From Eledone cirrhosa (lineage: Eukaryota): 64,000 bases of DNA. The stretch is from assembly GCA_964016885.1 (NCBI GenBank), contig OZ024764.1, forward strand, positions 7,874,001 through 7,938,000. The letters run 5' to 3'. A model generated the notes under the pieces. It did not search any database, had not been told where the DNA came from, and saw nothing but the letters and a program-made list of their open reading frames with translations. Made by a program: the position numbers and the translations under genes. This document shows positions 5,201 to 50,880 of this stretch, one piece after another. Within the stretch, counting starts at the first letter, position 1; each line of letters begins with the position of its first letter.

Positions 5201-6920
5201 AACAACATGATAGGATTGGGGTCCCTATCATTTAACACCTTATAGGACACTAGCTTAACAACATGATAGGATTGGGGTCCCTATCATTTAACACCTTATA
5301 GGACACTAGCTTAACAACATGATAGGATTGGGGTCCCTATCATTAAACATCTTATAGGACACTAGCTTAACAACATGATAGGATTGGGGTCCCTATCATT
5401 TAACACCTTATAGGACACTAGCTTAACAACATGATAGGATTGGGGTCCCTATCATTTAACACCTGATAGGACACTAGCTTAACAACATGATAGGATTGGG
5501 GTCCCTATCATTAAACACCTGATAGGACACTAGCTTAACAACATGATAGGATTGGGGTCCCTATCATTTAACATCTTATAGGACACTAGCTTAACAACAT
5601 GATAGGATTGGGGTCCCTATCATTTAACATCTTATAGGACACTAGCTTAACAACATGATAGGATTGGGGTCCCTGTCATTAAACACCTGATAGGAGACTA
5701 GCTTAACATGATAGGATTGGGGTCCCTATCATTAAACACCTGATAGGAGTGGGGTCCCTATCATTTAACACCTGATAGGACACTAGCTTAACAACATGAT
5801 AGGATTGGGGTCCCTATCATTAAACACCTGATAGGACACTAGCTTAACAACATGATAGGATTGGGGTCCCTATCATTTAACATCTTATAGGACACTAGCT
5901 TAACAACATGATAGGATTGGGGTCCCTATCATTTAACACCTGATAGGAGACTAGCTTAACAACATGATAGGATTGGGGTCCCTATCATTTAACACCTGAT
6001 AGGACACTAGCTTAACAACATGATAGGATTGGGGTCCCTATCATTTAACACTTGATAGGAGATTAGCTTAACAACATGATAGGATTGGGGTCCCTATCAT
6101 TAAACATCTGATAGGACACTAGCTTAACAACATGATAGGATTGGGGTCCCTATCATTTAACACCTGATAGGACACTAGCTTAACAACATGATAGGATTGG
6201 GGTCCCTATCATTTAACACCTGATAGGACACTAGCTTAACAACATGATAGGATTGGGGTCCCTATCATTAAACATCTTATAGGAGACTAGCTTAACAACA
6301 TGATAGGATTGGGGTCCCTATCATTTAACACCTTATAGGAGACTAGCTTAACAACATGATAGGATTGGGGTCCCTATCATTTAACACCTGATAGGACACT
6401 AGCTTAACAACATGATAGGATTGGGGTCCCTATCATTAAACATCTTATAGGACACTAGCTTAACAACATGATAGGATTGGGGTCCCTATCATTTAACACC
6501 TGATAGGACACTAGCTTAACAACATGATAGGATTGGGGTCCCTATCATTTAACACCTGATAGGACACTAGCTTAACAACATGATAGGATTGGGGTCCCTA
6601 TCATTAAACATCTGATAGGACACTAGCTTAACAACATGATAGGATTGGGGTCCCTATCATTAAACATCTTATAGGACACTAGCTTAACAACATGATAGGA
6701 TTGGGGTCCCTATCATTAAACATCTTATAGGACACTAGCTTAACAACATGATAGGATTGGGGTCCCTATCATTTAACACCTGATAGGAGACTAGCTTAAC
6801 AACATGATAGGATTGGGGTCCCTATCATTAAACACCTGATAGGAGACTAGCTTAACAACATGATAGGATTAGGGTCCCTATTATTAAACATCTAAAGCAC
6901 TGTTTGTAGGGGGCCAGCTA
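2290..6920. repeat. Dispersed repeat expanded into a 56-bp hairpin-containing satellite (~3020-6890, ~69 copies)
   Basis: Unit atgataggattggggtccctatcatttaacacctgataggagactagcttaacaac; related single-copy sequence inverted at ~15800-15965. Confidence 0.95.
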
Positions 6921-6969
6921 AACATAGGTATTAGCTAAAAATTTAAATACATATTTTCTCATTTTTCAG

Positions 6970-7088
6970 GCCTGTTATGGCATTCAAGCCATTCCTGAGG
7001 GGAGTTGGCTCTGTCGTCCATGTTCCCTGGGGGTGAAACCTGTCTGTATTCTATGTCCAAATACTAATGGGGCCATGAAAAGTACGCG
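6970..7088 (+). CDS. JADE: Jade exon (PHD1 C-part, Zn knuckle)
   Basis: ag|[39 protein letters not shown](R)|gtaagt, phase 0/2. Confidence 0.95.
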
Positions 7089-7099
7089 GTAAGTGGCAT

Positions 7100-9660
7100 T
7101 GTTATTATTGGTGTTGGTGGAGGTTGTTGTGGTGGTGGTGTTGGTAGTGGTGGTGGTGGTGTTGGTAGTGGTGGTGGTGGTGTTGGTAGTGGTGGTGTCG
7201 GTGGTGATTATTGTGAAGGTCTTGGTTGTGTGTTGGTGGTGTTGGTGGTATTGGTAGTGGTGTTGTCGGTGGTGGTATTGGTAGTGGTGGTAGTGGTGTT
7301 GTCGGTGGTGGTTGTGTGATGGTGGTATTGGTAGTGGTGTTGTCGGTGGTGGTTGTGTAATGGTGGTCTTGGTGGTGGTAATGGTAGTGGTGTTGTCGGT
7401 GGTGGTTGTGTGATGGTGGTCTTGGTGGTGGTGTTGTCAGTGGTGGTGGTGTGATGGTGGTCTTGGTGGTGGTGTTGTCAGTGGTGGTTGTGTGATGGTG
7501 GTCTTGGTGGTGGTGTTGTCAGTGGTGGTTGTGTGATGGTGGTCTTGGTGGTGGTGTTGTCAGTGGTGGTTGTGTGATGGTGGTCTTGGTGGTGGTGTTG
7601 TCAGTGGTGGTTGTGTGATGGTGGTCTTGGTGGTATTGGTAGTGGTGTTGTCGGTGGTGGTTGTGTGATGGTGGTCTTGGTGGTGGTAATGGTAGTGGTG
7701 TTGTCGGTGGTGGTCTTGGTGGTGGTGTTGTCGGTGGTGGTTGTGTGATGGTGGTATTGGTAGTGGTGTTGTCGGTGGTGGTCTTGGTGGTGGTAATGGT
7801 AGTGGTGTTGTCGGTGGTGGTTGTGTCTTGGTGGTGGTTGTGTGATGGTGGTCTTGGTGGTGGTGTTGTCGGTGGTGGTTGTGTGATGGTGGTCTTGGTG
7901 GTGGTAATGGTAGTGGTGTTGTCGGTGGTGGTGGTAATGGTGGTGGTGTTGTCGGTGGTGGTTGTGTGATGGTGGTAATGGTGGTGGTATTGTCGGTGGT
8001 GGTCTTGGTGGTATTGGTAGTGGTGTTGTCGGTGGTGGTTGTGTGATGGTGGTCTTGGTGGTGGTAATGGTAGTGGTATTGTCGGTGGTGGTTGTGTGAT
8101 GGTGGTAATGGTGGTGGTGTTGTCGGTGGTGGTTGTGTGATGGTGGTCTTGGTGGTATTGGTGGTGGTATTGTCGGTGGTGGTTGTGTGATGGTGATCTT
8201 GGTGGTATTGGTAGTGGTATTGTCGGTGGTGGTTGTGTGATGGTGGTCTTGGTGGTAATGGTGGTGGTGTTGTCGGTGGTGGTTGTGTGATGGTAATGGT
8301 AGTGGTATTGTCGGTGGTGGTTGTGTGATGGTGGTCTTGGTGGTATTGGTAGTGGTATTGTCGGTGGTGGTTGTGTGATGGTGGTCTTGGTGGTGGTATT
8401 GTCGGTGGTGGTTGTGTGATGGTAATGGCAGTGGTATTGTCGGTGGTGGTTGTGTGATGGTGGTCTTGGTGGTATTGGTAGTGGTATTGTCGGTGGTGGT
8501 TGTGTGATGGTGGTCTTGGTGGTGGTAATGGTAGTGGTATTGTCGGTGGTGGTTGTGTGATGGTAATGGTAGTGGTATTGTCGGTGGTGGTTGTGTGATG
8601 GTGGTCTTGGTGGTATTGGTAGTGGTGTTGTCGGTGGTGGTTGTGTGATGGTGGTCTTGGTGGTATTGGTAGTGGTATTGTCGGTGGTGGTTGTGTGATG
8701 GTGGTCTTGGTGGTATTGGTAGTGGTGTTGTCGGTGGTGGTTGTGTGATGGTGGTCTTGGTGGTGGTATTGTCGGTGGTGGTTGTGTGATGGTAATGGTA
8801 GTGGTATTGTCGGTGGTGGTTGTGTGATGGTGGTCTTGGTGGTATTGGTAGTGGTGTTGTCGGTGGTGGTTGTGTGATGGTAATGGTAGTGGTATTGTCG
8901 GTGGTGGTTGTGTGATGGTAATGGTAGTGGTATTGTCGGTGGTGGTTGTGTGATGGTGGTCTTGGTGGTGGTATTGTCGATGGTGGTTGTGTGATGGTAA
9001 TGGTAGTGGTATTGTCGGTGGTGGTTGTGTGATGGTAATGGTAGTGGTATTGTCGGTGGTGGTTGTGTGATGGTGGTCTTGGTGGTATTGGTAGTGGTGT
9101 TGTCGGTGGTGGTTGTGTGATGGTGGTCTTGGTGGTGGTAATGGTAGTGGTATTGTCGGTGGTGGTTGTGTGATGGTAATGGTAGTGGTATTGTCGGTGG
9201 TGGTTGTGTAATGGTGGTCTTGGTGGTATTGGTAGTGGTGTTGTCGGTGGTGGTTGTGTGATGGTGGTCTTGGTGGTATTGGTAGTGGTGTTGTCGGTGG
9301 TGGTTGTGTGATGGTGGTCTTGGTGGTGGTATTGTCGGTGGTTGTTGTGTGATGGTGGTCTTGTGGTATTGGTAGTGGTGTTGTCGGTGGTGGTGGTAAT
9401 GGTAGTGGTATTGTCGGTGGTGGTTGTGTGATGGTGGTCTTGGTGGTGGTAATGGTAGTGGTGTTGTCGGTGGTGGTCTTGGTGGTGGTGTTGTCGGTGG
9501 TGGTTGTGTGATGGTGGTATTGGTAGTGGTGTTGTCGGTGGTGGTCTTGGTGCTGGTAATGGTAGTGGTGTTGTCGGTGGTGGTAATGGCAGTGCTGTTG
9601 GTATTGGAGGTGGTGGTTGTAGTGGAGGTGTTGGTGGTGGTCCTGTTCATAGTGTGATAG
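7100..9660. repeat. GGT-based compound low-complexity repeat
   Basis: Mosaic of ggt/ggttgtgtgat/ggtctt/gtcggt modules inside an intron. Confidence 0.95.
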
Positions 9661-21887: not shown

Positions 21888-23807
21888 GTTCGCAACCTGT
21901 GCTACATGGTGAGTCGTCGGGAGAAGATGAAGCGACATTATTACCGTGTAAAGGAGAGCTTGTTTCAGGCACAGGTGGAGCTACTGACCAGCGACAAACA
22001 GCTGATGACCTCTCGGGAGGTGAACAAGATCCTTGCCAAGTACGAAGACAACAGCCTGTACAACGTGTTCCTGAAGCAGGACCACGACCCCGACACCACT
22101 GTGTTGTCGGACTGGGGTGTGTCGAGGGTTGGCTACGAGGACTTCATCAAACGTCACCTGTCGTTTGGGAGTCCACAGGCCGGGTCTGACGGTGGCAGCA
22201 AGCACCATCAGTCGGTGTATCGTAGCCCGCAGCGAACCCCGATGTCCGTGAAGGGTTGTGTACGGAAAAAGGCCCGCCAATCTCCGGCGATGGAGAACAG
22301 CAAACAGCACCAGGAGAGGGCAGCGACGCCCAAGTACGCCATCAAGAAGCTTATCCCGCACAAGAACAAGGAAAACGCGGCGAGGAAATCTTACGTTGAC
22401 GTTGACGATGGCGACGACGATGATGATGATGACGACGACGAAAGCCAGGTTTCCGACGATGGTAATTACGATGCGGTCGAGAACTTTCTGCCAAAAGGGC
22501 AGCTGACTGGCGACAAGAAGAAAAAGAAGAAGAAGAAAATGATGATGATGAAGCGGCGGAAGAAGAGGAGGAGAAAAACTATCGCAGGGGGACCCTGTCG
22601 GAATATTCTGAAGGACCGCAAGTGCTCCTCACTGTTGCTAGCGACGACTGTGCCGCCCTCTAACAAGGCAACAGCGAATAACAGCAACAGTGGAAGCAGT
22701 AAGAAGAGCAAGTTGAAAAGTATTATCAAAGTCCACAAGCTAAGGTTCGAACGGAACGCCCTTAAAAGGAAGCTGACGGAGAAGTTCAGCCACGGCCAAC
22801 ACCATCATCAGCACCACCTCTCCCGGGGTTACTCGAAGTTCCGGGTCAGCGGCTACCCAATGTCGGATGAGAAATGCAGTAAGGCGGTGGGCAATGAAAA
22901 TCAGGACAAATCCAACCTTTTGGATGCCCACGTCCACCACAAACAGAAGGGTTATAATGGTGGCGCGAGAGGGTCCAACGCGAGCAACCCTGCTGTTGTG
23001 TCTCTCAAGAAGAAACAGCGTGGCGGCAGCGGTGGTGTTGGTGGTGGTAGTAGGGGCGGAGGAACGGGTGGTGGTGGTGGTGGTGGTGGTGGTGGTGGTG
23101 TCGGTGGTAACGCAGAAGGGGGCTTCAGGCACCACCACCACCACCATCATCACAAGGTAAAGCGTGAACAGACGGGGGGTGGCTTCCCGCGCGGCCGTGA
23201 CTCCGACAGGGACGAAGAAGAAGACGACGGCGGCGGCCTCGATGGAGATGGCGACGACGAGCTGGCTCGTTACTCTGTGGTGGCCACCCCACTGTCGGCC
23301 GCGCAGTCGGCTCTGAAGGGCGGAGCTGGCGCGGGCCACATCTCCGAGCGACTCAAGGTGGAGCTTCATGGCCTGCTGGAGAAGTCGAAGCTGTTCGTGC
23401 CGGAGAAGCTGCGCGAGAGGCTGCAGGACAAGCTGCTGGAGTCGAAGAACATCCGTTGCTTCATGAGCGGCCTTCGGGACACCCGGCAACCGCCTCCGCT
23501 GGTCTTCAACTCCTACTGGAGGCTGTCGAAGGCTTCCCGGTCGCGCCTCGCCGAGCCCGGCCGTCAGCAAGACCGCGACTGTCGCCCCGTTGCCGCCGCC
23601 GCCGACGACGACGACGACGACCGTCCACCACCGGAGCTTGAGATTCAGGACATTGGCAGGAGACGGAGGCGGAGAAGCTCTTCTTCCATATTTAGTCATC
23701 ACATAGCGTCTTCGGACTTCTTCAACAACAAGCTCGACCATGAGGAATGGTATGAAAGCCACAACGCCAGCGGGGATGACGGCCACTACAAGGTCCATAC
23801 TAGCCGA

Positions 23808-23851
<44 letters not shown>

Positions 23852-24566
23852 TAATAATAATAATCGGCATGACACGTCTGACAGCAAGCAGTCACATCTT
23901 GTTGGCGATGAACAACAACAACAACAACAACAACCACAACCACCACAACCACCACAGAAGCATGTGAAGTTGGAGGGTTCCGGTCAGGATCATCACATCA
24001 ATAACAACAGCAACAGCAACAGCAACAGCAGGATCTGCACGAGGCCTCCCCTCGAGCGTAGGGTTCGACGGAAGCTCAGCCAAGACCTGGAGGCTTGCCG
24101 GACAGCGGGCGAGCCTTTGGCAGGCGACACTGCTCCGCTGGCGCGAGAGAAGCAAGCATCATCGTCATCATCAGTAGCTTCCACTGTGGAAAGTCGAGCA
24201 GACTCTGTAAGCGATTCTGGCAACAATAATGATGCAGATGATGATGATGATGATGATAGTACCAACAACAACAACAACAGCAGCAGTGGTAACACTAATT
24301 CTTCGAAGGGAAATTCATTGAAGGAGTCTGGGTCGTCGAAATGTGGCGCAGCCACCGAAGAGGGGCCTGAGAACAACACTACTACTACTACGAGTCAAAG
24401 CCAGGAGAAGTACATTGATACGTTCAGACGCCTGTCTGCGATCCCACGTCGGATAACGCGCAGCCTCACCACCGAATGGAGCGGGGAAGAGGGAAGCGAT
24501 GCCAGCCACAAGCCTTCGCCCGTGTCATCTTCGTCATCAAAACAATCCCTTAAGTCTACAACGTGA
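21888..24566 (+). CDS. JADE: Jade/rhinoceros terminal coding exon with long low-complexity tail
   Basis: ag|VRNLCYMVSRREKMKR continues the Jade motif RQDLERVRNL; open to TGA at 24566. Confidence 0.9.
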
Positions 24567-39795: not shown

Positions 39796-40364
39796 ATTTC
39801 TTTATTATCCACAAGGGCGCAAAAGAATTTATAACAATGATAAATTAAACAATCGAAATCCCCAATAGTGGGGAGGCGTTAAACGGGTTGTACAACCCTC
39901 ATCTCCAGGAACATGAAGAGTAAGCGCTCCCTTCCTCTCTTCTTCCTCCACCTACAGGCCTATATAGAGAGAAGGCCCAGCCACTCGGGCCAGCCTTGCC
40001 ACATTCACCCACCTTTCAGAAAATTTGCTGGGGTGCAGCACCTCTCTCTCCACTCTGGTTCTTCTTCTAAAATGATATTTGAAGAAGCGAACCAGTTGTT
40101 TGCTGGAGAGAAAGGTGTCTGACCCCAGCCCTTTCAGCCTCGTCCACCATATAGTCTCTTTCACCATAGCTATTACACAGAGGAAAACCGCCTCCTCTTC
40201 GTTTTTGAAGGAAGGTGGCGGTTTGATCGTAATAATGGACTCGGTGGTCAACCGGATTTGTCCCACCCGTGACAGTAGTCGTTCTGCATAGCTCCACAGG
40301 TCGGTAACGCCCGGGCAGTGTACGAATGCGTGCGCGACGGTTTCCTCGTCCTGCATCTCAGACA
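39796..40364 (-). mobile_element. Tx1/L1-like LINE 3' end (~570 bp)
   Basis: ETVAHAFVHC zinc-binding motif; 3' end gcgcccttgtgg..AATAAAG shared with the copy ending at 46167. Confidence 0.8.
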
Positions 40365-40444
40365 TTTTTTTTTTTTTTATTTCAGAAAAAAGTTACAATG
40401 ATAAATTTCCTTTTCGGAATTACTATTTATATAAACAAAGACTT

Positions 40445-40850
40445 TCAGTATTCAGGAGAGTTGTTTAATGGTGTAGGTGAAGGTGAATTTCTGTGAGAAT
40501 CCATTAATTTTGCGTATTTTCGCCATCTGCATTCATTTGGTCTGTTTTCTTTTTCATCGGACTCTTCGTCTTCTGATTCGGGCACGACGACGGTGTCCCC
40601 GCTTCTAGGAGGAGACGGAGACCGAAGTCTACGTCGTCTTTCTCTATCATTTTCTCTTTCACATTTTTCTCGTTCGAGTCTGTTGTACTCGTCTAAAACA
40701 TGAGCGAGATTTTCATCAGACGACGAGCTATCTTCATGTGCTAAATTGAAGAAGCAATGTTCATAGAAAAGCTCATTCCAAATAAATGGATTTAATTTTT
40801 TTTTTACATACTGCAGGACAGGTGCTTTGGCTTTAAACAAGAATTCAGTA
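40445..40850 (-). pseudogene. Parvovirus-like NS1 C-terminus (variant B)
   Basis: YTEFLFKAKAP..KKKLNPFIWNELFYEHCF parallels YTEFLFTCSP..KKKLNPFIWNILFYEHCF of ORF 41332-42702; followed by an AT-rich UTR and an A14 run (40378-40365). Confidence 0.85.
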
Positions 40851-41235
40851 TACGTGGTCGGGTCAATAATCTCTAATACTCCGTATGAAAAGAAAAAGCT
40901 AGAACATTCAAACGAATTTTATTTGAAAATACATTCAATACTAGTAAAGAAAACATTAATAAAGTTATTTTTCAATGTAACCTCCATTGTTTACAACCAT
41001 CTTTCGCCATCTTAACAGTAATTCTTCAAACGCCGCTTTGAAAAATGAATCATCCAAAGAGTTCAAATATTCATTAACAAAACTTTTGAGTTCCTCTCCA
41101 GTTGCAAAGTGATTACCACTGAGCTCTTTCTTAAGCAGTCTGAAGAAAAAGAAGTCACTTGGAGCAATGTCCGGACTATAAGGAGGGTGAACGAGTTGAT
41201 GAAAGCCACGTTTTTCAATGCATTCTTGTGCAAGT
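40851..41235 (-). mobile_element. mariner 3' fragment inserted in NS1
   Basis: HPPYSPDIAPSDFFFF..RWRKMVVNNGGYIEK*; right end terminates at a TA (40851-52). Confidence 0.88.
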
Positions 41236-41460
41236 TTTGGTAATGAATGCTACTTTTTCTGCTAAAGGAGCATTCTGGTCGAATTTGTTGTTGCTGGTGA
41301 TGATGAGTGGAGTTCTATTTACTAGTTGGTCTTATTTGAATTTAACAGTCACTTCCGTGTCAACTCCTTCTGCCAACTTTTTAAATGTTTGTAACGTTTC
41401 TAATGTGAAGTTAGGTTCTTTGATTAAACCTATCTCGACGTTAATTAAATTCTGGAACTC
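41236..41460 (-). pseudogene. Parvovirus-like NS1 helicase segment (variant B)
   Basis: FQNLINVEIGLIKEPNF..KFK*DQLVNRTPLIITSNNKFDQNAPLAEKVAFITK; diverged duplicate of Walker B to motif C. Confidence 0.85.
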
Positions 41461-42898
41461 GTCTAGAATGTGACATAGGTTATCATCTGACGAATTGCTG
41501 TCTTCATTTATCATGTTACTGAAGCAATGTTCGTAAAACAAAATATTCCATATGAATGGATTAAGCTTCTTTTTTATGTACTTTAAGAAAGGCGAACATG
41601 TGAAAAGGAATTCCGTGTATCTGGTTATGAATGCAATTTTTTCTGATAAAGGAGCGTTCTGATCGAACTTGTTATTACTTGTAATGATTAATGGTGTCCT
41701 ATGAACTATTTGGTCCTGCTTAAACTTTATGGCTACTTCTGTGTCTATTCCTTCTGCCAATTTTTTAAAGGTTTGTAGAGTTTCTAATGTAAAATTTGGT
41801 TCTTCTATCAAACCAATTTCTACGTTTATGAGATTTTGAAATGGGAAACTACTTGTACCCTGAATTGTGGAGACATGTGTAAACATGTCAGCAATGCTTC
41901 TTGCAACCATAGATTTACCGGTGTTAGGTATACCTCTTAATACTAAGAGATTTCTTTTCGTTTTTTTTTTAGTTAGTAGTTCCCATACCGTATTTACAAA
42001 TGTGGCTTCTGGCAGATCTTGTGTGAGTATAATCGATTTCAAAATTTTGAGTGAAACGTCTCTGTCCATATAGTTCTTATTATTGTCAAAGAATTCCCAG
42101 TTCATTGATTCGAATTTATCTTTGAATGACATATTTAGTGTTTTAAGTTTTTCACATTCTAATACTTTCTTCATGACGCTGTCGTACATTGGGTGTGAAA
42201 TTGCTCTCGTGAAGTCGTTGTTAGTTCTATGTAGCCAGTGTGATTTCATATCTTGTTCGCTTCTAAACTTTTTTGAGGTAAAGATGTAAGATAAGTAATT
42301 GAATAATATTAACGTAGTGCCCGATTTCGATTTAAATGATGGTTCTTCTTGTGCTGTAACTGGTAATTTGCTGGTTGATGCTTTTGGTTGTACGTTTGGT
42401 TTTTGTCTATATTCCTGTTCACACCATTCAGAAAATGTTTCGTTGATTTCGTCAATGCCTTGTATCAACAGATATCTTGGAGGTTGACAAAAGTAGTTTG
42501 CCATACTACTGGAAAATTTGATTCTTTGACATTCTGGTATGTAGCGTACCAACTTGGTTGCTTTTTTGTACAAACTTCTTATATATTTTAGCCGTTGGTT
42601 TTCGCCCGGTCTTTGTAAACTGTGCCATATAATATGGAAGTGGTTGAAGGCGTCCCATTCCTTTTTCGCGCATAAAGTATTGTTCTTTGGATGATAAATC
42701 ACTGTTGCTCCCTCAATGAACGAAATCTTTTATCTTGTAGTTGCTGCTAATTTGGTATGTATCCTTACGTGTTTCGTCATCGTTATGTTCGTTAATGTTG
42801 AGTTCAAAATGTTTAATTGGTCCAGCTCCTTGGTGCCAGTAAAAGTCGTTTGTTTCTATCCAAGGATAGATACACATGTATAACTTATAACCTGAGTT
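41461..42898 (-). pseudogene. NS1: Parvovirus-like NS1 (HUH endonuclease + SF3 helicase), variant A; one frameshift near 42720
   Basis: HFHIIW (HUH), GIPNTGKS (Walker A), IGLIEE (Walker B), FKKLAEG (B'), PLIITSN (C); ORF 42713-42961 supplies the N-terminal part in another frame. Confidence 0.9.
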
Positions 42899-42932
42899 CT
42901 GAAATGGAAAATGGTTACATTGTAATATTACT

Positions 42933-44285
42933 TTAACGATGTGCTTGGCGAGTTTTACCAACTCTCGTTATTTCATAATTACGTAAACCTTGTGGCCATT
43001 TACATAGGTTAGTTTTAGCTGAATTCATTATTGTTGCGTTAGCTGTACCCCAAGCCATCCACCCCATTGTTTGAGGACTGCCAGATATATATTCGAAATC
43101 TACTTCTGAATAATAAGTAATTGTTATCGTGAATGATATTTTTGAAGGGTTATTTTGAGAGTCTAATATAGGTACTGAATCTAATGTTGCTATTGGTGGA
43201 GGATTTGATGGATTAACCGGAAATTGCGTTAAATGTGACCGACCCGTATTTTCTTCTTCTTCAGTTTTATCTACTGCTAAATCTTTGCTCCATGTTCCGT
43301 CTTTAATCGGTGCCCATTGCGATTTTTTAGCTCCTGAATATGTATTTATTTCACATGGTAGACCGTTAGTTAATTTAATTGTTGGTGGTTCGAAAGTTGT
43401 GTTGAATGCGTAGTACCCCATAAGCGAAAACCAACTAGGTGTTCTGTTAACCCATGTGTATGTTGCTGTATCCCCTGCATATAAGAATTGGAAGTCCCCT
43501 GTATTTAGGTATGATAGTATTTCTTCTGCTGGCATTTCTTGATCCGTAGCGGTTGCTGCTTTTATATCTTGCCATAACCACCAGTCTTTTCTAATTAATC
43601 TGTAGCTTTCTATTGGTGCTAGTTTCCCTTCGTCCCTAGTTAGTGGTATGTTATGTGTCCAGTTATGATTTAAGTGAGCTATATTCCATGTTTGGTTTGG
43701 AAATAATGCATATTTATTATCTACATAATGTATCATCCATGGTCTTGTGTTAAATGTTGTGTTGGTTGTAGTAGTGTTTTGTAACGTTCCTAATTCGTCT
43801 GTAAGTGGTATTATGTTCGATATTTTGTAACCGCATGATTTAACTCTGAAGTTGCTACATGGTGTTAAGTATGTTTTTAGTTCTGCTATCGTCATACTCG
43901 CTTTTAACTCTGTGTAAGGAATTAAAGCTGCTCTATGTTTAATCATTAATTCTATATATTCTGCATCGTGTTGTTTGTAATATGCTTTATCTATCGGATT
44001 TTCTGAACAATTTATGTAATGTATGAATGTTCTTGAGAATTTTTTTGAGACTATTGGATTTATGTCCCCTATTACTGGTGGTTGATCCCCTTGTGCTAAC
44101 GCTTCTGACCCTCCTGGTGATGGTCCTACGTGTGGATCCCCCATTGTTGGTGTTTCTACTATGCCACTATCTTGTGATGTTGCCGCGTTTACTAGATCTT
44201 GATCTGATATTTCGCAACCGTCTTGATTTTTATGTGATTGTTCTTGTTCTTGTTCTATTCTCCTCTTTTTCTCAGTCGGTGGCAT
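42933..44285 (-). CDS. VP: Parvovirus/densovirus-like major capsid protein, uninterrupted 450-aa ORF
   Basis: KKRR NLS-like start, Gly/Pro-rich N-arm, LIPYTELKASMTIAEL..FRVKSCGYKI motif typical of parvoviral VP; in frame with upstream PLA2 and adjacent to NS1. Confidence 0.75.
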   Translation of the reverse strand: MPPTEKKRRIEQEQEQSHKNQDGCEISDQDLVNAATSQDSGIVETPTMGDPHVGPSPGGSEALAQGDQPPVIGDINPIVSKKFSRTFIHYINCSENPIDKAYYKQHDAEYIELMIKHRAALIPYTELKASMTIAELKTYLTPCSNFRVKSCGYKISNIIPLTDELGTLQNTTTTNTTFNTRPWMIHYVDNKYALFPNQTWNIAHLNHNWTHNIPLTRDEGKLAPIESYRLIRKDWWLWQDIKAATATDQEMPAEEILSYLNTGDFQFLYAGDTATYTWVNRTPSWFSLMGYYAFNTTFEPPTIKLTNGLPCEINTYSGAKKSQWAPIKDGTWSKDLAVDKTEEEENTGRSHLTQFPVNPSNPPPIATLDSVPILDSQNNPSKISFTITITYYSEVDFEYISGSPQTMGWMAWGTANATIMNSAKTNLCKWPQGLRNYEITRVGKTRQAHR

Positions 44286-44507
44286 TACAAAGTTTTTTCC
44301 TCTTATAATATTCCTTACTAAGAACGCCGATACTCCGCTACTTTTTTTACTTCACTCGATTAGTTTGTTGTCAGCTTCTAATATAGTTATATCTGTTCTG
44401 TCTAAATCGTGTTCTCTGCAGCACTTGTCTAATTCATTCAAAGGTTTGTTGTTGTAATTGTTTGTGTATGGTCCACAGTAATTATAATATGGTAAATGTA
44501 AAGGGAT
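44286..44507 (-). pseudogene. VP1-unique PLA2 domain, variant A (ATG>ATC, in-frame TGA)
   Basis: IPLHLPYYNYCGPYTNN..NELDKCCREHDL..KLIE*SKK..NFV reads in frame into MPPTEKK; TGA at 44354-44352. Confidence 0.85.
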
Positions 44508-44517
44508 GATTACTTAT

Positions 44518-44571
44518 CGCGAGTTCTGCCAACATTGTTGCATCTCGTAGCTTTAAATCTTCGTAACTCAT
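44518..44571 (-). CDS. 18-codon leader exon candidate, variant A (donor reads ATAAGT)
   Basis: MSYEDLKLRDATMLAELA; homologous to 45320-45373. Confidence 0.55.
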
Positions 44572-44644
44572 CTTGAGTAGTAGCGAAGTATCGACGTTCT
44601 TCTTTTGGCGTGTATTTCTGTTGTGCTAATTTGAAATGCGCGCC

Positions 44645-44700
44645 TTGATATTTATACTGTTTTTAATGCTGACTATGCTTTTAATTTTGCCTACGTGTTT
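44645..44700 (-). promoter_or_regulatory. Viral promoter candidate A
   Basis: TATAAA at 44656-44651, 80 nt upstream of the leader ATG; ACGTAGGCAAAA upstream, as in copy B. Confidence 0.5.
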
Positions 44701-44842
44701 GTATTTGAATTATTGCTGTCGCAGCATTAATATTCCCGCTGTAATTGATATCTTCAATGTGATTGGATAAGCTGCCTGCTCTCTGCACTGCCCTTTTGGA
44801 AAGGGAGACAAGCCGGTCGGGAGGGAGGTGGAGGAATCCTAA

Positions 44843-45312
44843 GTATTTTGCTTACTATCGGATTTCTATCTCCATTCGACGGTGGCTGATCTCCTGTAGC
44901 CATCGAAGCTGCACCTCCTGGTGCTGGCCCAACATGAGGATCTCCCATGTTTTGAGATTCGTTTATTCCGCTGTCTTGTGATGCAACTGCGTCAATCAAA
45001 TCTTGATCCGAAATGTCGCAACTATCTTCTTGATATTTTTCGATTCTTCTTGTTCGATTCTTCTTTTTTTAGGAAAGACAGGAGGCATTAGTATATTTTT
45101 TGCCTTAATTATATTCCTAAGAACGATGATACCCCACTAATTTCCTTACTACAGTCTATTAATTTTTTATCTGCGTCTTCTGTTAATATATCTTGTTTAT
45201 CATAATGTAAGTCATGTTGTCTGCAGCAGTTATCTAATTCGTTAATCGGTTTCTCTTGAAAGTTATTAGTGTAAGGCCCACAGTAATTATAAAATGGTAA
45301 ATGTAATGGCAT
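44843..45312 (-). pseudogene. PLA2 + capsid N-terminus, variant B, frameshifted and truncated
   Basis: MPLHLPFYNYCGPYT..NELDNCCRQHDLHY; then MPPVFPKKRRIE..SQDSGI..MGDPHVGPAPGG..NPIVSK. Confidence 0.88.
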
Positions 45313-45319
45313 GACTTAC

Positions 45320-45373
45320 CGATAGTTCGTTCAACATTGTGCTATCTCTTGCTTTTAAATCTTCGTAATTCAT
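45320..45373 (-). CDS. 18-codon leader exon candidate, variant B, with consensus donor
   Basis: MNYEDLKARDSTMLNELS|GTAAGT (45319-45314); the PLA2 ATG follows at 45312. Confidence 0.6.
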
Positions 45374-45454
45374 TATTGTTGGTTTTATGTTTCAGTGGAG
45401 TATCGTTGTTCTTTTCAGCGCGGGCCCTTCTGCCTCTGTGACAGATTTTTCCGC

Positions 45455-45505
45455 GCAATGGTATTTATATGCTATTGTTTTTGTTTTATTTTTGCCACGT
45501 TTCAT
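45455..45505 (-). promoter_or_regulatory. Viral promoter candidate B
   Basis: TATAAA at 45469-45464; ACGTGGCAAAA upstream. Confidence 0.5.
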
Positions 45506-45564
45506 TTAGTCAGCATATTTTAATATCCAATCAGAATTAATCTTAGTCAGCAAAATATTTCCCG

Positions 45565-46150
45565 CCACATAGTAATGAATATTTTAGCTATTCGTTCTGG
45601 CCTCATTTGGACCAGAACTTCCAGGCTAGTACCATTAAATATGCCCCTGGGGGACTTTCCTATTGAAATTAATGTGTCTTCATCGAAGTTGATGAAGCCA
45701 CATAAAATCCACCAAATATTTACGTTTGGTTGGATGCACGACACTCTTATTTTCTGTGTCCTTTTTCCCGTGTATGGGGGGGAAAAAGATGAAAGGGGGG
45801 GGGGGGGGACACAATTGGCGACACAGAATATTTTTGTGGCGTCAATTGGTCTTTCATGAGGACCGAAATGCTGCCAAAAAGTTTACCTTTTTGTATGAAG
45901 GTAATGTCCTTGATTGAGTCTTTTAACACCAGTTCAATTTCATTATGAGTCAATTGAACTGGTTTTCTTGTGGCATTAGATATTGTTCTAAAAACTAATG
46001 TTCTAAAAACATTTTCTCTGCTTAACTGTTGGGGTGAAGTAATGCTGAAGGTAACATTCTCCCCAAAAGTCACGTGTTGTTTTGCATCTTCCAGTAACTC
46101 TCTAGCATTAGTGATGTCGGTTTGCGTGTAAATTTCCGTTTTTTTTTACT
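45565..46150 (-). mobile_element. LINE ORF1 fragment
   Basis: FRTLVFRTISN..GSISVLMKD..PNVNIWWILCGF; homologous to 50250-50690 and 52200-52680. Confidence 0.7.
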
Positions 46151-46166: not shown

Positions 46167-49100
46167 ATTTCTTTATTAGCCACAAGGGCGCACAAGAAAA
46201 GGGGACAATATAAAGACACATGGCGGGGATTTTACATACAATCGTGTAAAAAAATATAAAACAAGCAATTATAACAATCGAAATCCCTAATAGGGGGGAG
46301 GCACCACAAATGGGTTGTTTAATACCCCGTCGATAGAACAACCCTCAACTTCAGGAGCGTGTTGTGCAAGTGCTCTCTTCCTCAACCTACAGGTTTATAT
46401 ACAGAGAAGGCCCAATCACTCGGGCCATTTTTGCCACAATCACCCACCTTTCAGTAAATTTACTGGGGTGCAGTGCCTCTCTCTCCACTGATTCTCCTTC
46501 TAAAGTGGTACCTAAAGAAGGGAATGAGTTGTCCAGAGAGAAAGGCATCTGTCCTCAGTCCTCTCAACCTCGTCCACCATATAACTTCTTTCACCATAGC
46601 CACCGTACAGAAGAAAACCGCCTCTCTTTCGTTTTTGAAAGAGGCTGGCGGTTTGATCCTTATTATGGGCTCGGCAGTCAACTGGATTTGTCCCATACGT
46701 GACAGCAGTTCCGCGTAGTTCCACAGGTCGGTTACGCGCGGGTAGTGTACAGTTGCGTGCAGGACGGTTTCAATTCCCTGCATGCATCTTGGACACGTTC
46801 TCTTGGAAGGATCCCTGCCGGGGCATCTATGCCTGTAGATCTTGTCTCGAACTGGTAGAGCTCCTCGGTAGCACTGACAGGCCAGGGACCTCTGGAAGTT
46901 GCCTATGGGTCCCGGCTGGAAAGTTCTACCAAACAGACTGGTGAGTTCGTCCCCCTTGTGACGTACTAACCCTCTATAGAATGTCGAAGTGGAATTTCCA
47001 CTGATTGCCGTGCCCGCTTGACAGAGGACTGTGAGCGCCTGAGCGCATTCAATGTGCCAGGCGCCCATCTTCTTCGGTCTTCGCTTGACCCAGGACGGCA
47101 GCTCCGTCAGCGAGACAAGTTGCCGGAAGTCCTGTCTCACAAACGGTGTCCACACTGGTTGGGGGTTGGTGAGGAATACCTGTAGGTGCCGTAACCTCAG
47201 TGCATCATCAGCCACGGCATTCCCAGCCCTCCGTTGGAAGGGTGGTGACAGCAGACGGATCTCCTCACCAGTGGAGCCTGCTTCTTTCAAAGGAACTGAA
47301 AGAGCATGCAATCCATCTTGGTGAGGTGTTCACGGGGCCAAGGCACGACAGTCAAGCGGTAGTAGATGACGGACGCTATGAAAGTGTTCACCACCTCTGC
47401 CCGACCTTTCAAGGATAGTTTGCACTCTGCCCATTTCTGGGTGAGCGCAAATACCTTGGCCGTGACCTCGTTCCAGTTTTTCTCCATCTGGTGGCCGGAC
47501 CGAACCAGACCCTGAGCAATTTCCCCGGTCCGTCCGTCCAGCGTCCAACGACGCTGTCGGACGGCATCGGTTTGCCTCTCCACGTTCCGAGTTGCAAACC
47601 GACAGACTTGTCTGGGTTCAGTTTTGCTCCTGTGAGCCTTTCATATTCCTGCAGTAAGTTGCCGATCTCCCTGATTTCAGAGGCTTCCGACACAATTACC
47701 GTCACGTCGTCGACATAAGCCGATGCCGCTTTCCGCGGTCCCTGTTCCAACGGGATGCCCTGCAACAACCCCAGTGGCTCTAGAGTCAGTACGTACAGAA
47801 TGGAGGAGAGAGGGCCTCCCTGTCGGATGGAACGCGTGATTGCGAACGGCTCCGATAGGTAGCCGTTCACCTTGACCATCGAGCAGATATTGGTGTGCAT
47901 TGCGGCGATCCAGCCTCTGAAGACGGGTCCGAAACCGGGCACCTTGAGAACCGCTTCCAAGTATCGATGGTCAACCTTATCGAACGCCTTAGACTCATCT
48001 AAATTGATCAGAGCCCCACCAAATCCGGGTTTACACCCCACACTCTCTATGATGTATCGCATGAGGTGGAGGTTGTCGTGTATGGACCTGGTCGGGATTG
48101 CACAGATTTGCGCTTTCCCTACCAGGTTCTCGACGACAAGTGCCAACCTCTTTGCCAACACCTTGGCCAAAATCTTTAATTCTGTTGAGCAGAGTTATGG
48201 GCCTAAAGTTGCGTAGTTCGTCCCCCTTTTTCTCGTCTTTCCTTAGCGTTAATACGCCCTTGCCTGCAGAACTGGGAATTCTCCCGTTCTGCTGCCAGTT
48301 GCAGTAGACGGCCTCGAGGACGCCAGAGAGCAAGTCCGGCATGCCTATGTAAAACTCATACGGTAGACCATCTAGACCGGGTGATTTGCGTTTCCCGCAG
48401 CGGCCCAGAGCGTCCCGTATTTCAGTGGCTGTGATCGGTCTTTTGCAGAACTCGGCGTCCATGCTCGAGAGACGCAGCAGGCCATCGAGGTATGAACCGA
48501 AGTCCATTGCCCCGTTCGATGCACCGCCACTCTGCCCGAACAGTGCCGCTGAAAAGCCGCGCACATCCGCTTGGGGTCAAGTAGTACGCGTCGGTTTTGG
48601 TCTTTCAAAGACCGAATCGTGGAATTGTTGCCACTCAGGCCCAGCTAACAGCTAGCACTCTAGCTACGTTGCCACTCCTAAGCACCTCCTCTACCTTGGC
48701 TACTAGTTCCGATTCTCTTTTGTTGCTCTCTAAGGCTAACTCTCTGCTAAAGTCTATCGTCTCTACTCTAATTGCTTTCTTGAGGGAGTACCACCATCTG
48801 TTTTTGATGATGGCTCCCATCAATTGTTGCTTAACTAATCTACTTATCTGCTAACTGTAGGCTTTACGTGTCGGTAGCGACACTTTCAGCTTCCAGTATC
48901 CAGGTCTTTGTCTATGTATTCTATCTACTGGAAGCTGAACGTGTCGCTACCGACACGTTCAGCTTCCAGTAGATAGAATACATAGACAAAGACCTGGATA
49001 CTGGAAGCTGAACGTGTCGGTAGCGACACGTTCAGCTTCCAGTAGATAGAATACATAGACAAAGACCTGGATACTGGAAGCTGAAAGTGTCGCTACCGAC

Positions 49101-50880
49101 ACGTTCAGCTTCCAGTAGATAGAATACATAGACAAAGACCTGGATACTGGAAGCTGAAAGTGTCGGTAGCGACACTTTCAGCTTCCAGTATCCAGGTCTT
49201 TGTCTATGTATTCTATCTACTGGAAGCTGAACGTGTCGCTACCGACACGTTCAGCTTCCAGTATCCGGGTCTTTGTCTATGTATTCTATCTACTGGAAGC
49301 TGAACGTGTCGCTACCGACACGTTCAGCTTCCAGTATCCGGGTCTTTGTCTATGTATTCTATCACGGTTGACTATGCAGAGGACTAGTTTGTGTCTGAAT
49401 AGGCAACCATGTGCATTTGTGGACAGCTTAACATCTTCTTGTCCTTCTCTCTAATGAAGAACCTATCTAAATACGATCTAGATGTCCCGCTGCAGTTTGC
49501 CCACGTCCACTGTGGTGCAGTCGGGAAATCTAGTCGATATCTATCGGCCAGTTGGAATTGGCCGATTAGATTTTTGAGGCTGTTGCACCCCCCTCTACTG
49601 AGACATGATCCCACATAGTCCCATCGTGCATCTAGGATACCATTCCAGTCCCCCACTGTTCGTCTGTGAGTTTTCTTTTTTGTGTTTGTGTTGGTATTTG
49701 TTTGGTTGGTAGGGGGAGGTTTGGTTGTGGTGCTGTTTGTGTCTGTGTCTGTGGTTGTGTGTTGGTGTTGGTGATTTGAGTTTTGGGGGTTTTGTGGTAT
49801 CTCTTTTTTTGTTTTTTTTTATTTCCGAGGCTCTCCTTCATCACTTAAAGAAGCAGCAGCCTCATCTGTTGATGGATAATCATTATCAGGTGGGGTAGGG
49901 GTATGTTGTATGGTGGTGGTGTTTCGGTGTTTGAGGTAGTGTGGGATGGGATGGGGCTGTGTTCTTCAGGAGTGTTGTCTGTGTTTTTTCTGTTGTTGGT
50001 TGAGTGGTTGTTTGTTTTGGTGTGTTTGCTTGTTTCGTGTGTTGTGGTGGTAGTTGTTTTGGTGTTGGTAACAGTGTTTTCTTTTGTAATGTTTTGGTTG
50101 AGCCTGTTTGTAAAGGGCAGGAGGCCTTTAGGTGTGTGGTGCTATTGCAACGAAAGCAATGTGGTTTTCGTCCCTCAACCAAAATGCATATGTGGCTGTT
50201 GTTATCCACTAGCAGTTTTTCTGGTATTCTGGAGATTCTTTCCAGGCTCATTTGTACCAGACCAGGTCTGTCTGGTTGACTTTTTGATGGAGAGAATGGT
50301 GTCTTTTCTCTCCTCCAAAAATCCTGCCAATATCCACCAAATATTAATATTTGGTGGTATGTTTGTAATTCTGATCTTTTGTGTCTCTTTTGTTAGGTAT
50401 GTAGGGAAAAAGGTGTATTTTTTTTGACAGTATTGGCGTCACTGAGTATCTTTGTGCAAGGGCCTCGCTTTTGAGGAGTACCGAAATACTCCTGTACTGT
50501 TTGGCCCTCTGCATAAAGTCAATGTCTGGCAATATCTTTATTAAAGTTGCCTCAATTTCCCCTTGACTGAGGAATGCTGTTTTTTTTGTTTCATTTGAAA
50601 TAGTTCTGAAGGTAATTGTCCTTCGAAATGTTTCCAGACGAATTTTTGGGGGTGAGTTTATCTGAAATCACCCGTTTTCACCGAAAGTGATAAACTCCTT
50701 TGCTTCAGTTGTCGGTTTTTCCGTTTGTAGTTGTGTCTATTGTTTCATTTTTTGTGGTTTTTGATGTCTTGCAAGTTGCATTTTTAGGCTTCTTGGCAAA
50801 ACAAAACTTTGTTGTCACTATTTGTCTCCATAGTGACGCCTATGTAGGCAGAAGTTGCAGTAACATTACTCTCTGCATTT
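46167..50880 (-). mobile_element. Degenerate Tx1/L1-like non-LTR retrotransposon (ORF1, partial APE endonuclease, RT, C-terminal Zn motif, 3' end)
   Basis: CFRCNSTTHLKASC knuckle; GDWN, SYLDRF, GYWKLNVSL; KSPGLDGLP, FRPITLLN, KAFDKVDH, RQGGPLS, YVDDV; CPRC..ETVLH. Confidence 0.92.
48867..49363. repeat. 73-bp dumbbell (double-hairpin) tandem array with independently inverted loops
   Basis: 21-nt stem, 27-nt loop, reverse stem, 4-nt loop, ~6.7 units; both loops occur in both orientations. Confidence 0.92.

What the first reader, a model, noticed from the sequence alone, without database searches (positions are those of the whole stretch)
40365..45505. Parvovirus-like element whose capsid gene appears nested inside an intron of NS1
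Seen: on the - strand the order is TATA, an 18-codon leader, PLA2-VP, then NS1. The leader is conserved in two diverged copies (MSYEDLKLRDATMLAELA / MNYEDLKARDSTMLNELS). In copy B it ends at a consensus phase-0 donor TCG|GTAAGT, and the VP1 ATG starts 7 nt into the putative intron. About 35 nt after the VP stop there is a branch-like TGTAAC and a pyrimidine tract CCATTTTCCATTTCAG| (AG at 42900-42899). This acceptor opens phase 0 into the NS1 N-terminal frame (NSGYKLYMCIYPW..). No promoter or hairpin lies between VP and NS1, which argues against a head-to-tail concatemer. Established: monosense Parvoviridae place NS upstream of VP, and ambisense densoviruses use opposite strands. Inference: one promoter gives a spliced mRNA for NS1 (1.6-kb intron removed) and an intron-retaining mRNA for VP1/VP2, so splicing would act as the early/late switch. 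I do not know a described parvovirus with this layout. Caveat: the intact donor is in copy B; copy A reads ATAAGT.
Basis: partly seen in the sequence, partly recalled or inferred. Interest (0 to 1): 0.92.

Follow-up and report, generated by a model that had tools for sequence, protein, structure and literature searches.

The report
Parvovirus with capsid inside an intron
An animal genome, probably an octopus, carries many fossil copies of a small parvovirus-like virus whose capsid gene lies in front of the replication gene, inside an intron of it, which reverses the usual parvovirus layout and makes host splicing decide which of the two proteins is made.

Summary
Observation confirmed and extended. 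The window holds two broken, nested copies of a parvovirus-like element. Its genome holds 25 same-strand VP-end to NS1-start junctions and no same-family NS-to-VP junction. Terminal hairpin sequences lie before the leader and after NS1 in single copies of about 4 kb, so this is not a concatemer artefact. The donor is GT[AG]AGT in 11 of 12 distinct leaders, and a phase-0 YAG acceptor stands in 9 of 9 copies. Leader and first NS1 codons are under purifying selection. Contigs of 2 of 4 public runs join exactly this donor and acceptor (1,618 nt skipped, GT..AG); a presumed DNA run does not. VP folds as a parvoviral jelly roll and carries PLA2. A second lineage (25% NS1 identity) also has VP before NS1, but with its own start codon. 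Not shown: a free virus, use of the viral promoter, that the runs are RNA, or an early/late switch. Ten literature searches found no such layout. New variant of a known kind; interest 0.86.

The parts
45374..45581 (-). Copy B upstream/promoter region, TATAAA at 45469-45464
   Evidence: 87% to L046 and 96.7% to L053 over 44846-45581; TATA
45320..45373 (-). Copy B 18-codon leader exon (MNYEDLK...ELS)
   Evidence: pN/pS 0.36 over 11 leaders
45314..45319 (-). Copy B splice donor GTAAGT
44846..45312 (-). Copy B VP1 5' part with PLA2 domain; stop near 45111, truncated at 44846
   Evidence: PF08398 E 4.8e-14 on 45112-45312
44784..44851 (-). Remnant (inner arm) of the left terminal palindrome of copy A; does not fold on its own
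   Evidence: 95.6% over 68 nt to L046 hairpin; L046 hairpin z -10.8; window remnant z 0.56
44572..44783 (-). Copy A promoter region, TATAAA at 44656-44651
44518..44571 (-). Copy A 18-codon leader exon (MSYEDLK...ELA)
42899..44517 (-). Copy A intron equivalent (1,619 nt) holding the whole VP gene; donor non-canonical in this copy
   Evidence: the homologous 1,618-nt intron of L036 is skipped in contigs of runs X18 and X9
42933..44507 (-). Copy A capsid gene: PLA2-type VP1 part (start codon lost, stop at 44354-44352), open 44351-42933, VP2-type Met at 44285
   Evidence: fold of 42936-44144 pLDDT 70.9, parvovirus capsids Z up to 18.7
42899..42932 (-). Spacer: conserved GTAATATTAC-type motif, pyrimidine tract, acceptor AG 42900-42899
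41458..42898 (-). Copy A NS1 exon 2: HFH (HUH-type) motif near 42640, Walker A GIPNTGKS 41934-41911, SF3 helicase; frameshift and stop near 42730-42715
   Evidence: PF01057 E 1.3e-16, PF00519 E 7.2e-11
41238..41457 (-). Diverged second NS1 helicase piece
   Evidence: 77.7% to 41622-41841
40967..41240 (-). Inserted transposase fragment, mariner-like by a recalled motif (PPYSPDIAP)
   Evidence: only weak PF13333 E 0.0078; label recalled
40445..40823 (-). NS1 C-terminal tail (acidic, R/S/P-rich) of a second variant
   Evidence: 76% to L046 over 40398-40823
40365..40381 (-). AATAAA running into an A-run; end of the element, no right hairpin kept here

Best explanation
These are endogenous copies of an undescribed, about 4-kb, monosense parvovirus-like lineage laid out as hairpin - TATA - 18-codon leader - PLA2/VP - NS1 - AATAAA - hairpin. 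SHOWN in DNA: order, termini, splice signals, coding constraint. SHOWN in contigs of two runs: removal of the 1.6-kb VP-containing intron joins the leader in frame to NS1, and intron-retaining contigs stand in the same runs. INFERRED: the spliced mRNA gives NS1 (about 570 aa). The unspliced mRNA gives VP: the leader frame then runs 11-12 codons past the donor and stops, overlapping the VP1 ATG out of frame, so VP1 needs leaky scanning and the major VP starts at a later Met by scanning or re-initiation, which would give little VP1 and much VP2. INFERRED and weakest: the spliced/unspliced ratio shifts during infection and sets early NS1 against late capsid. The window itself is a dead mosaic: the 5' end of one variant (B), a near-complete second variant (A) with a non-canonical donor, and further NS1 pieces.
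For: Order: 25 VP-end to NS-start junctions in the window plus 53 loci (18 lineage 1, of which 5 are near-identical; 7 lineage 2); NS-end to VP-start at 2 places only, both between elements of different lineages, 465-1005 nt apart. Termini: left hairpin before the leader (L046 z -10.8, L036 z -3.5), fold-back after NS1 (L036 z -23.3, the centre of a tail-to-tail inversion), right-end remnant in L046 (z -3.4), shared CCGGGAGG-type motif at both ends. Donor GT[AG]AGT in 11 of 12 distinct leaders of 56-98% identity; acceptor YAG in phase 0 in 9 of 9, with spacers of 36, 37, 41 and 42 nt, so length changes before the AG ignore frame. A deep copy (L059, VP about 39% identical) has an 18-codon leader of unrelated sequence followed by GTAAGT and the VP ATG at +8. 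pN/pS 0.36 in the leader frame (0.72 and 1.29 shifted) and 0.27 over the first 7 NS1-exon codons, upstream of the invariant Met. Joint 6172-7791 of L036, 1,618 nt skipped, ends CT..AC, in X18 (depth 18.1) and X9 (16.3; other organism label and study, diverged contig), 0 in X15. All 7 near-identical leader copies in the assembly run on into the intron, so no intronless DNA copy of that variant was found. Lineage 2 NS1 has 19 residues in one piece where lineage 1 has the 18-codon leader.
Against: No listed run is on record as RNA: X9 is 'RNA?' by guess, X18 is '?', and X15 is DNA only by my inference from its size. The joint is not among the 15 joints shown for X1 (14 more were not shown). Contigs cover DNA upstream of both TATA boxes, and in X1 and X9 the leader contig runs on into unrelated flanking sequence, so the transcripts may be read-through of endogenous copies and not products of the viral promoter. 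Intron-retaining contigs could be pre-mRNA or DNA. An in-frame Met at codon 8 of the NS1 exon (codon 6 too in 4 of 9) allows an internal start. Donor non-canonical in window copy A and L079, no AG at the expected place in L060, AAG in L059. No free virus was found: three scans of viral contigs gave nothing.
Confidence: 0.8

Rival explanations
1. VP-before-NS1 order is real, but NS1 is made mainly from an internal Met under a second promoter in the 3' end of VP; the splice is a minor route, or is seen only because host read-through transcripts cross endogenous copies.
For: Invariant Met at codon 8 of the NS1 exon; TATA-like hexamer at window 43091 inside VP; lineage 2 uses its own Met, with a TATA between VP stop and NS ATG in L052 and L076; contigs in X1 and X9 extend into flanking sequence upstream of the leader.
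Against: Purifying selection on the leader and on codons upstream of that Met; donor kept in 11 of 12 leaders, and after an unrelated leader in L059; L036 has no TATAWA inside VP; the exact joint is present in two runs.
Confidence: 0.12
2. The element is no longer a free virus but a parvovirus-derived mobile element or persistent germline agent of the host; the nested layout arose or is maintained there.
For: Copies at 98-100% identity on four contigs (C998, C10, C14, C5) with open frames, ragged ends and inverted junctions; no match in viral contigs.
Against: Capsid with PLA2 is kept across variants 60-86% identical; hairpin ends and fold-back junctions fit integrated replication intermediates (inference); a VP (P0026) and an NS1 (P0009) homologue each lie on an ENA contig of 4,017 nt, the size of one unit (same contig and order not checked). 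This rival leaves the splice mechanism standing.
Confidence: 0.06
3. The order is a by-product of head-to-tail concatemers or circles of an ordinary NS-then-VP genome that lost their termini before integration.
For: Concatemers and inversions do occur here (L036, L039, L042), and head-to-tail densovirus concatemers are described in tapeworms (PMC6880638, passage).
Against: Terminal palindromes lie before the leader and after NS1; the VP-NS1 spacer is 36-42 nt with no terminal sequence and is alike in copies down to about 40% protein identity; 0 same-lineage NS-to-VP junctions against 25 VP-to-NS.
Confidence: 0.02

Closest known systems
Monosense Parvoviridae in general (ICTV layout)
   Same: SF3 NS1, jelly-roll VP, PLA2 in VP1, terminal palindromes, about 4 kb, use of splicing (PMC13426907 section 3).
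   Different: PMC11357303 (passage) states that all parvoviruses have NS on the left and VP on the right, on the same or the opposite strand. Here VP is upstream on the same strand and inside the NS1 intron.
Penaeus monodon metallodensovirus (Metalloincertoparvovirus) and Penaeus stylirostris densovirus/IHHNV
   Same: Best sequence matches to the capsid core among solved structures: 6WH3 E 2.8e-12, 9NEK E 3.8e-6, 3N7X E 0.0018; weak PF16530 hits in VP relatives; marine invertebrate hosts, genome about 4 kb. IHHNV NS1 having a short spliced leader is recalled, not from a call.
   Different: Both lack PLA2 (PMC11357303, passage); PLA2 is present here. By fold they rank below vertebrate parvovirus and chapparvovirus capsids (Z 13-14 against 17-18.7). 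The PmMDV paper was not held, so its transcription map was not seen.
Swazi bat-associated megaparvovirus lineage (PMC13426907 section 17)
   Same: A PLA2-containing ORF lies upstream of NS1 and has a predicted splice donor.
   Different: There the capsid ORF is still downstream of NS1, lacks PLA2, and the coding region is about 6.4 kb; here the whole PLA2-VP gene is upstream and intronic.
Single-promoter parvoviruses (B19V, Aleutian mink disease virus, bocaviruses) and retroviruses (recalled)
   Same: One pre-mRNA is processed into non-structural and structural messages.
   Different: As recalled, those parvoviruses splice NS out to reach VP; here VP is spliced out to reach NS1, which is closer to the retroviral logic of structural protein from unspliced RNA. 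Recalled comparison, not tested.
Mollusc parvovirus-related sequences (PMC5013282, passages) and Octopus database proteins
   Same: That paper reports mollusc sequences outside known genera; 'capsid [Octopus vulgaris]' (40% to window VP), 'nonstructural [Octopus vulgaris]' and an O. bimaculoides SF3 protein are relatives.
   Different: No gene order or splicing in the passages seen; 'octop' does not occur in its main text; its supplements were not read.

Membership tests
Parvoviridae | NS1 with SF3 helicase | tested here: met
   PF01057 above cut-off in window, L036 and L051; AAV Rep and NS1 chains E 1e-14 to 1e-11
Parvoviridae | HUH endonuclease domain in NS1 | tested here: inconclusive
   HFH motif conserved in both lineages; no profile hit to the N-terminal part; not folded
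Parvoviridae | Single jelly-roll capsid protein of parvoviral type | tested here: met
   Model pLDDT 70.9; the 20 chains with Z >= 8 are all parvovirus capsids, best Z 18.7, rmsd 4.3, 268 aligned; next family Z 7.5; Foldseek agrees
Parvoviridae | PLA2 in VP1 (most members) | tested here: met
   PF08398 E 4.8e-14 (window B) and 1.3e-13 (L036)
Parvoviridae | About 4-6 kb unit flanked by palindromic termini | tested here: met
   Unit about 3.9-4.0 kb between hairpin sequences in L036 and L046; 2 of 5 folds are inversion centres, 1 of 5 (L034) and 3 of 4 did not fold beyond chance
Parvoviridae | Linear ssDNA in T=1 particles | not testable with these tools
   Only integrated copies and run contigs were seen
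Parvoviridae | Separate NS and VP cassettes, NS left and VP right (PMC10267136 abstract; PMC11357303) | tested here: not met
   VP upstream of NS1 and inside its intron. Hence filed as Parvoviridae-like and unassigned, not as a member of a described taxon
Metallovirinae / Penbrevirinae / Hepanvirinae / Hamavirinae | VP without PLA2 | tested here: not met
   PLA2 present; absence in those groups from PMC11357303 and PMC6631224 passages
Any described subfamily | Placement in an SF3 tree with reference viruses | not tested
Ambisense Densovirinae | NS and VP on opposite strands | tested here: not met
   Same strand in all 25 junctions

The most novel reading that the evidence does not exclude
A subfamily-level parvovirus lineage of octopods, still circulating, in which cassette order was first reversed (lineage 2, NS1 with its own start, in some copies its own TATA) and the capsid gene then became nested in an NS1 intron (lineage 1). 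A single promoter and one regulated intron-retention decision then run the whole life cycle, retrovirus-fashion: spliced RNA for early NS1, unspliced RNA for late capsid.
Probability: 0.4. Interest if true: 0.94.

Novelty: new variant of a known kind. Interest (0 to 1): 0.86.

Why it matters
NS-left/VP-right order is stated as universal for parvoviruses in a 2024 review (PMC11357303). This lineage breaks it twice over: reversed order in two deep lineages and, in one, a complete capsid gene nested in the intron of the replication gene. It shows that rolling-hairpin viruses tolerate a swap of cassettes, gives a natural case in which one intron-retention choice separates replication from packaging, and provides cephalopod parvovirus fossils, some with copies over 99% identical, that are transcribed and spliced in run contigs. 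It also warns annotators: gene callers start this NS1 at an internal Met (P0005 starts at MCIYPW), and VP-then-NS contigs may be dismissed as misassembled or circularly permuted.

Tried and rejected
Viral contigs: three scans gave no relative. Metagenome contigs: 2 loci of 366 pattern matches, both about 27% identical; L065 has its long ORFs on opposite strands and is a distant ambisense-type genome; L066 was not read. X18 lacks cover at 4200-4471 and nearly so at 8144-8260, while X15 covers all 30 bins; contigs cannot show transcript ends, so this is not counted as evidence. First fold of full VP from 8 sequences failed (pLDDT 43.7) and was not searched. Looked for an intronless DNA copy: none among 29 NS1 N-terminal matches; L114 looked like one but is a degraded copy with an internal deletion that keeps the acceptor. 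Looked for a conserved poly(A) signal right after the VP stop: none (AATAAA at L036:6164 is not kept in the window). A second splice into VP1 was considered; none is among the 15 joints shown, 14 were not shown. Window, L053, L033 and L034 terminal stretches did not fold beyond shuffles. Earlier scan notes: nothing for this genome or sequence; two unrelated notes. Literature: ten searches found no parvovirus with VP upstream of NS on one strand; figures are not held, no supplement was read (those of PMC5013282 and the genome maps of PMC9896142 may bear), and the PmMDV paper was not held. L124 and L125 were fetched and not analysed.


Full report
OBSERVATION. On the minus strand the order is TATA, 18-codon leader, PLA2-type VP, a 37-nt spacer ending in AG at 42900-42899, then NS1. 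The 41332-42729 frame is a parvoviral NS1 (PF01057 E 1.3e-16), and the N-terminal VP frame of copy B is a PLA2 (PF08398 E 4.8e-14). The window is a mosaic. Copy B runs from 45581 to 44846 and stops inside VP. It abuts a 68-nt remnant of the left terminal palindrome of copy A (44851-44784), and copy A then continues through leader, VP and NS1 to about 41458. Copy A is dead: non-canonical donor, no VP1 start codon, a stop in the VP1 part, and a frameshift and stop in NS1. A diverged second NS1 piece, a mariner-like fragment (label recalled) and an NS1 tail follow, ending in AATAAA and an A-run at 40365.

HOST AND COPY NUMBER. The window is G000:C25:7874001-7938000 in a 3.0-Gb assembly of 1,796 contigs. 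The NS1 helicase has 58 matches there, the VP core 42, the lineage-2 VP 24 (lower bounds, not copy numbers). The closest named proteins are from Octopus vulgaris and O. bimaculoides, so the host is probably an octopod (inference).

GENE ORDER. I fetched 20 + 14 + 20 stretches, chosen first by NS1 hits (with more flank upstream than downstream) and then by VP hits. Over the window and 53 of these loci (L086 left out as overlapping), 30 rows collapse to 25 distinct places where a VP C-terminus is followed on the same strand by an NS1 N-terminus: 18 of lineage 1, five of them near-identical, and 7 of lineage 2. L051, where the two frames overlap, fell outside the filter. The reverse junction appeared in 5 rows at 2 places, both between elements of different lineages in one cluster, 465-1005 nt apart. 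Some loci are scrambled (L049, L060, L064, L073, L076), with internal fragments in other orders.

TERMINI. Upstream of the leader lies an imperfect palindrome (L046 z -10.8; L036 z -3.5). Downstream of the NS1 stop and an AATAAA lies a second terminal sequence (centre of a tail-to-tail inversion in L036, z -23.3; remnant in L046, z -3.4). Both ends share a GGGA-repeat motif. L034, L033, L053 and the window remnant did not fold beyond shuffles. The unit is about 3.9-4.0 kb. The VP-NS1 spacer contains no terminal sequence. This rules out a permuted or concatemeric NS-then-VP genome.

SPLICE SIGNALS. Seventeen leader copies reduce to 12 distinct 54-nt sequences (56-98% identical); 11 of 12 are followed by GT[AG]AGT, the exception being window copy A. 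The hexamer occurs once per element. The leader frame stops at codon 29 or 30 if the intron is kept, and the VP1 ATG, where present, follows after 7 or 10 nt, the same out-of-frame position. Of six further VP starts, four have GTAAGT (one without a recognisable leader), one has a broken donor and one is truncated. L059, whose VP is about 39% identical, has an 18-codon leader of unrelated sequence, then GTAAGT and the VP ATG at +8. In 9 of 9 copies examined, a pyrimidine tract and YAG precede the NS1 frame in phase 0, at 36, 37, 41 or 42 nt from the VP stop. Eight more copies show YAG by eye; L059 has AAG and L060 no AG. pN/pS is 0.36 for the leader frame (11 leaders; 0.72 and 1.29 in shifted frames) and 0.27 for the first seven NS1-exon codons (9 copies; 1.26 and 2.64 shifted), which lie before the invariant Met at codon 8 (pairs are not independent). 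In the alignment, lineage-2 NS1 has 19 residues from its Met to the position where lineage-1 exon 2 begins, matching the 18-codon leader.

TRANSCRIPT EVIDENCE. Eighteen runs were listed for L036:4300-8240, none on record as RNA; four were laid. A joint from 6172 to 7791, skipping 1,618 nt with ends CT..AC on the plus strand (GT..AG in gene sense), stands in X18 (kind unknown, 88 million letters, depth 18.1) and in X9 (RNA by guess; another organism label and study; a diverged contig, depth 16.3). These are exactly the predicted donor and acceptor. Contigs that keep the intron occur in X18, X9 and X1. The assembly holds no intronless copy of this variant: all 7 near-identical leaders run into the intron, and none of 29 NS1 N-terminal matches is joined to a leader. 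Limits: contigs give no strand, start or level; cover extends upstream of the TATA boxes; in X1 and X9 the leader contig continues into unrelated flank and the NS1 contig breaks off at 4896, which points to read-through of a truncated endogenous copy. So the host spliceosome's use of these sites is supported; use of the viral promoter is not shown.

PROTEINS. The window VP core, folded with 60 aligned sequences, gave pLDDT 70.9. All 20 chains with Z of 8 or more are parvovirus capsids (best Z 18.7, rmsd 4.3, 268 aligned); Foldseek ranks a chapparvovirus capsid first among solved structures and unclassified Parvoviridae proteins first in BFVD. By sequence profile the best core match is the PmMDV capsid (E 2.8e-12). 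NS1 has an HFH motif, Walker A and an SF3 domain. In the helicase tree, lineage 1 with its database relatives (21 rows) and lineage 2 (8 rows) are separate, well-supported groups; no named reference virus was included, and rows with frameshifts gave long branches.

MECHANISM. Shown: layout, signals, constraint, and the joined form in two runs. Inferred: a promoter near the left end makes one pre-mRNA; splicing gives leader plus NS1; retention leaves a 29-30 codon upstream frame that overlaps the VP1 start, so VP1 is rare and a downstream Met gives the major capsid protein. No conserved poly(A) signal follows the VP stop, so the VP message would carry NS1 as a long 3' untranslated region. A timed shift from spliced to unspliced RNA is plausible by analogy with retroviruses and single-promoter parvoviruses (recalled) but has no evidence here. 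Confidence: about 0.95 for the order being the element's true layout, 0.8 for splicing as the main route to NS1, 0.4-0.5 for a temporal switch.

COMPARISON WITH WHAT IS KNOWN. PMC11357303 (passages) states that all parvoviruses have NS on the left and VP on the right. PMC13426907 (passages, and sections 3 and 17 whole) describes a lineage with a PLA2 ORF upstream of NS1 but VP still downstream. Passages of PMC6631224, PMC9896142 (also section 14), PMC12297876, PMC5013282, PMC10267136, PMC6880638, PMC12287923, PMC11125579 and PMC11822035 showed no VP-then-NS monosense genome. Ten searches of the held library found none either, nor a paper on octopus parvoviruses. The library lacks most subscription papers and all figures, no supplements were read, and the PmMDV paper was not held, so an unnoticed database genome with this order is not excluded. 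The element works like a parvovirus in its proteins and termini but fails the cassette-order feature, so I file it as Parvoviridae-like and unassigned.

VERDICT. Real, conserved, and supported by run contigs; a new genome architecture within a known kind of virus. Interest 0.86. What is missing is a free virus, stranded RNA data and a tree with reference taxa.

Noticed in passing
L051:961-4407; L052, L053, L055, L067, L068, L076, L031:6872: A second parvovirus-like lineage (NS1 25% identical to lineage 1) also has PLA2-type VP upstream of NS1 on one strand, but VP and NS1 each have their own Met; L052 and L076 have a TATA between VP stop and NS ATG. No leader or conserved acceptor was seen.
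   Followed up: partly
G000:C12:9069500-9092900 (L033, L034, L051, L086): At least four parvoviral copies of both lineages lie in a row on the same strand within about 20 kb, with more near C12:8.97-9.00 Mb; this may be a piRNA-cluster-like trap (guess).
   Followed up: no
L036:3580-5003, L039:3180-3870, L042: Near-identical copies (98-100%) on four contigs show head-to-head and tail-to-tail fold-back junctions centred on the termini, as from integrated replication intermediates; X15 and X18 hold this variant.
   Followed up: partly
window 42932-42920 and most copies: A palindromic GTAATATTAC-type motif directly after the VP stop is conserved although non-coding; branch point or protein-binding site.
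   Followed up: partly
window 40365-40381: AATAAA runs straight into 14 A at the element's end; could be a retrotransposed poly(A) end or a natural A-rich tract.
   Followed up: no
window 46248-46771 and 39821-40344; 47409-48194: The element sits between two 75.6%-alike LINE-type 3' ends; an RT domain (PF00078 E 8.7e-20) lies upstream.
   Followed up: no
window 40967-41240: Mariner-like transposase fragment inside the NS1 tail region (label recalled; weak Pfam support).
   Followed up: partly
L040:6012-7051: A tandem expansion of about 80 nt inside the VP gene of one copy.
   Followed up: no
P0027 cluster; P0026, P0009, P0028, P0046-P0056: Six VP pieces on one 1.14-Mb ENA contig suggest tandem copies in another assembly; 535 proteins match the VP profile, among them a group of 560-615 aa PLA2-bearing capsids on 3-4 kb contigs whose gene order is unknown.
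   Followed up: no
window 2907-6900, 48854-49363, 21888-24566: A 56-nt tandem array of at least 69 copies; nested inverted repeats of about 190 nt; an 892-codon open frame with only a weak C2H2 zinc-finger hit.
   Followed up: no
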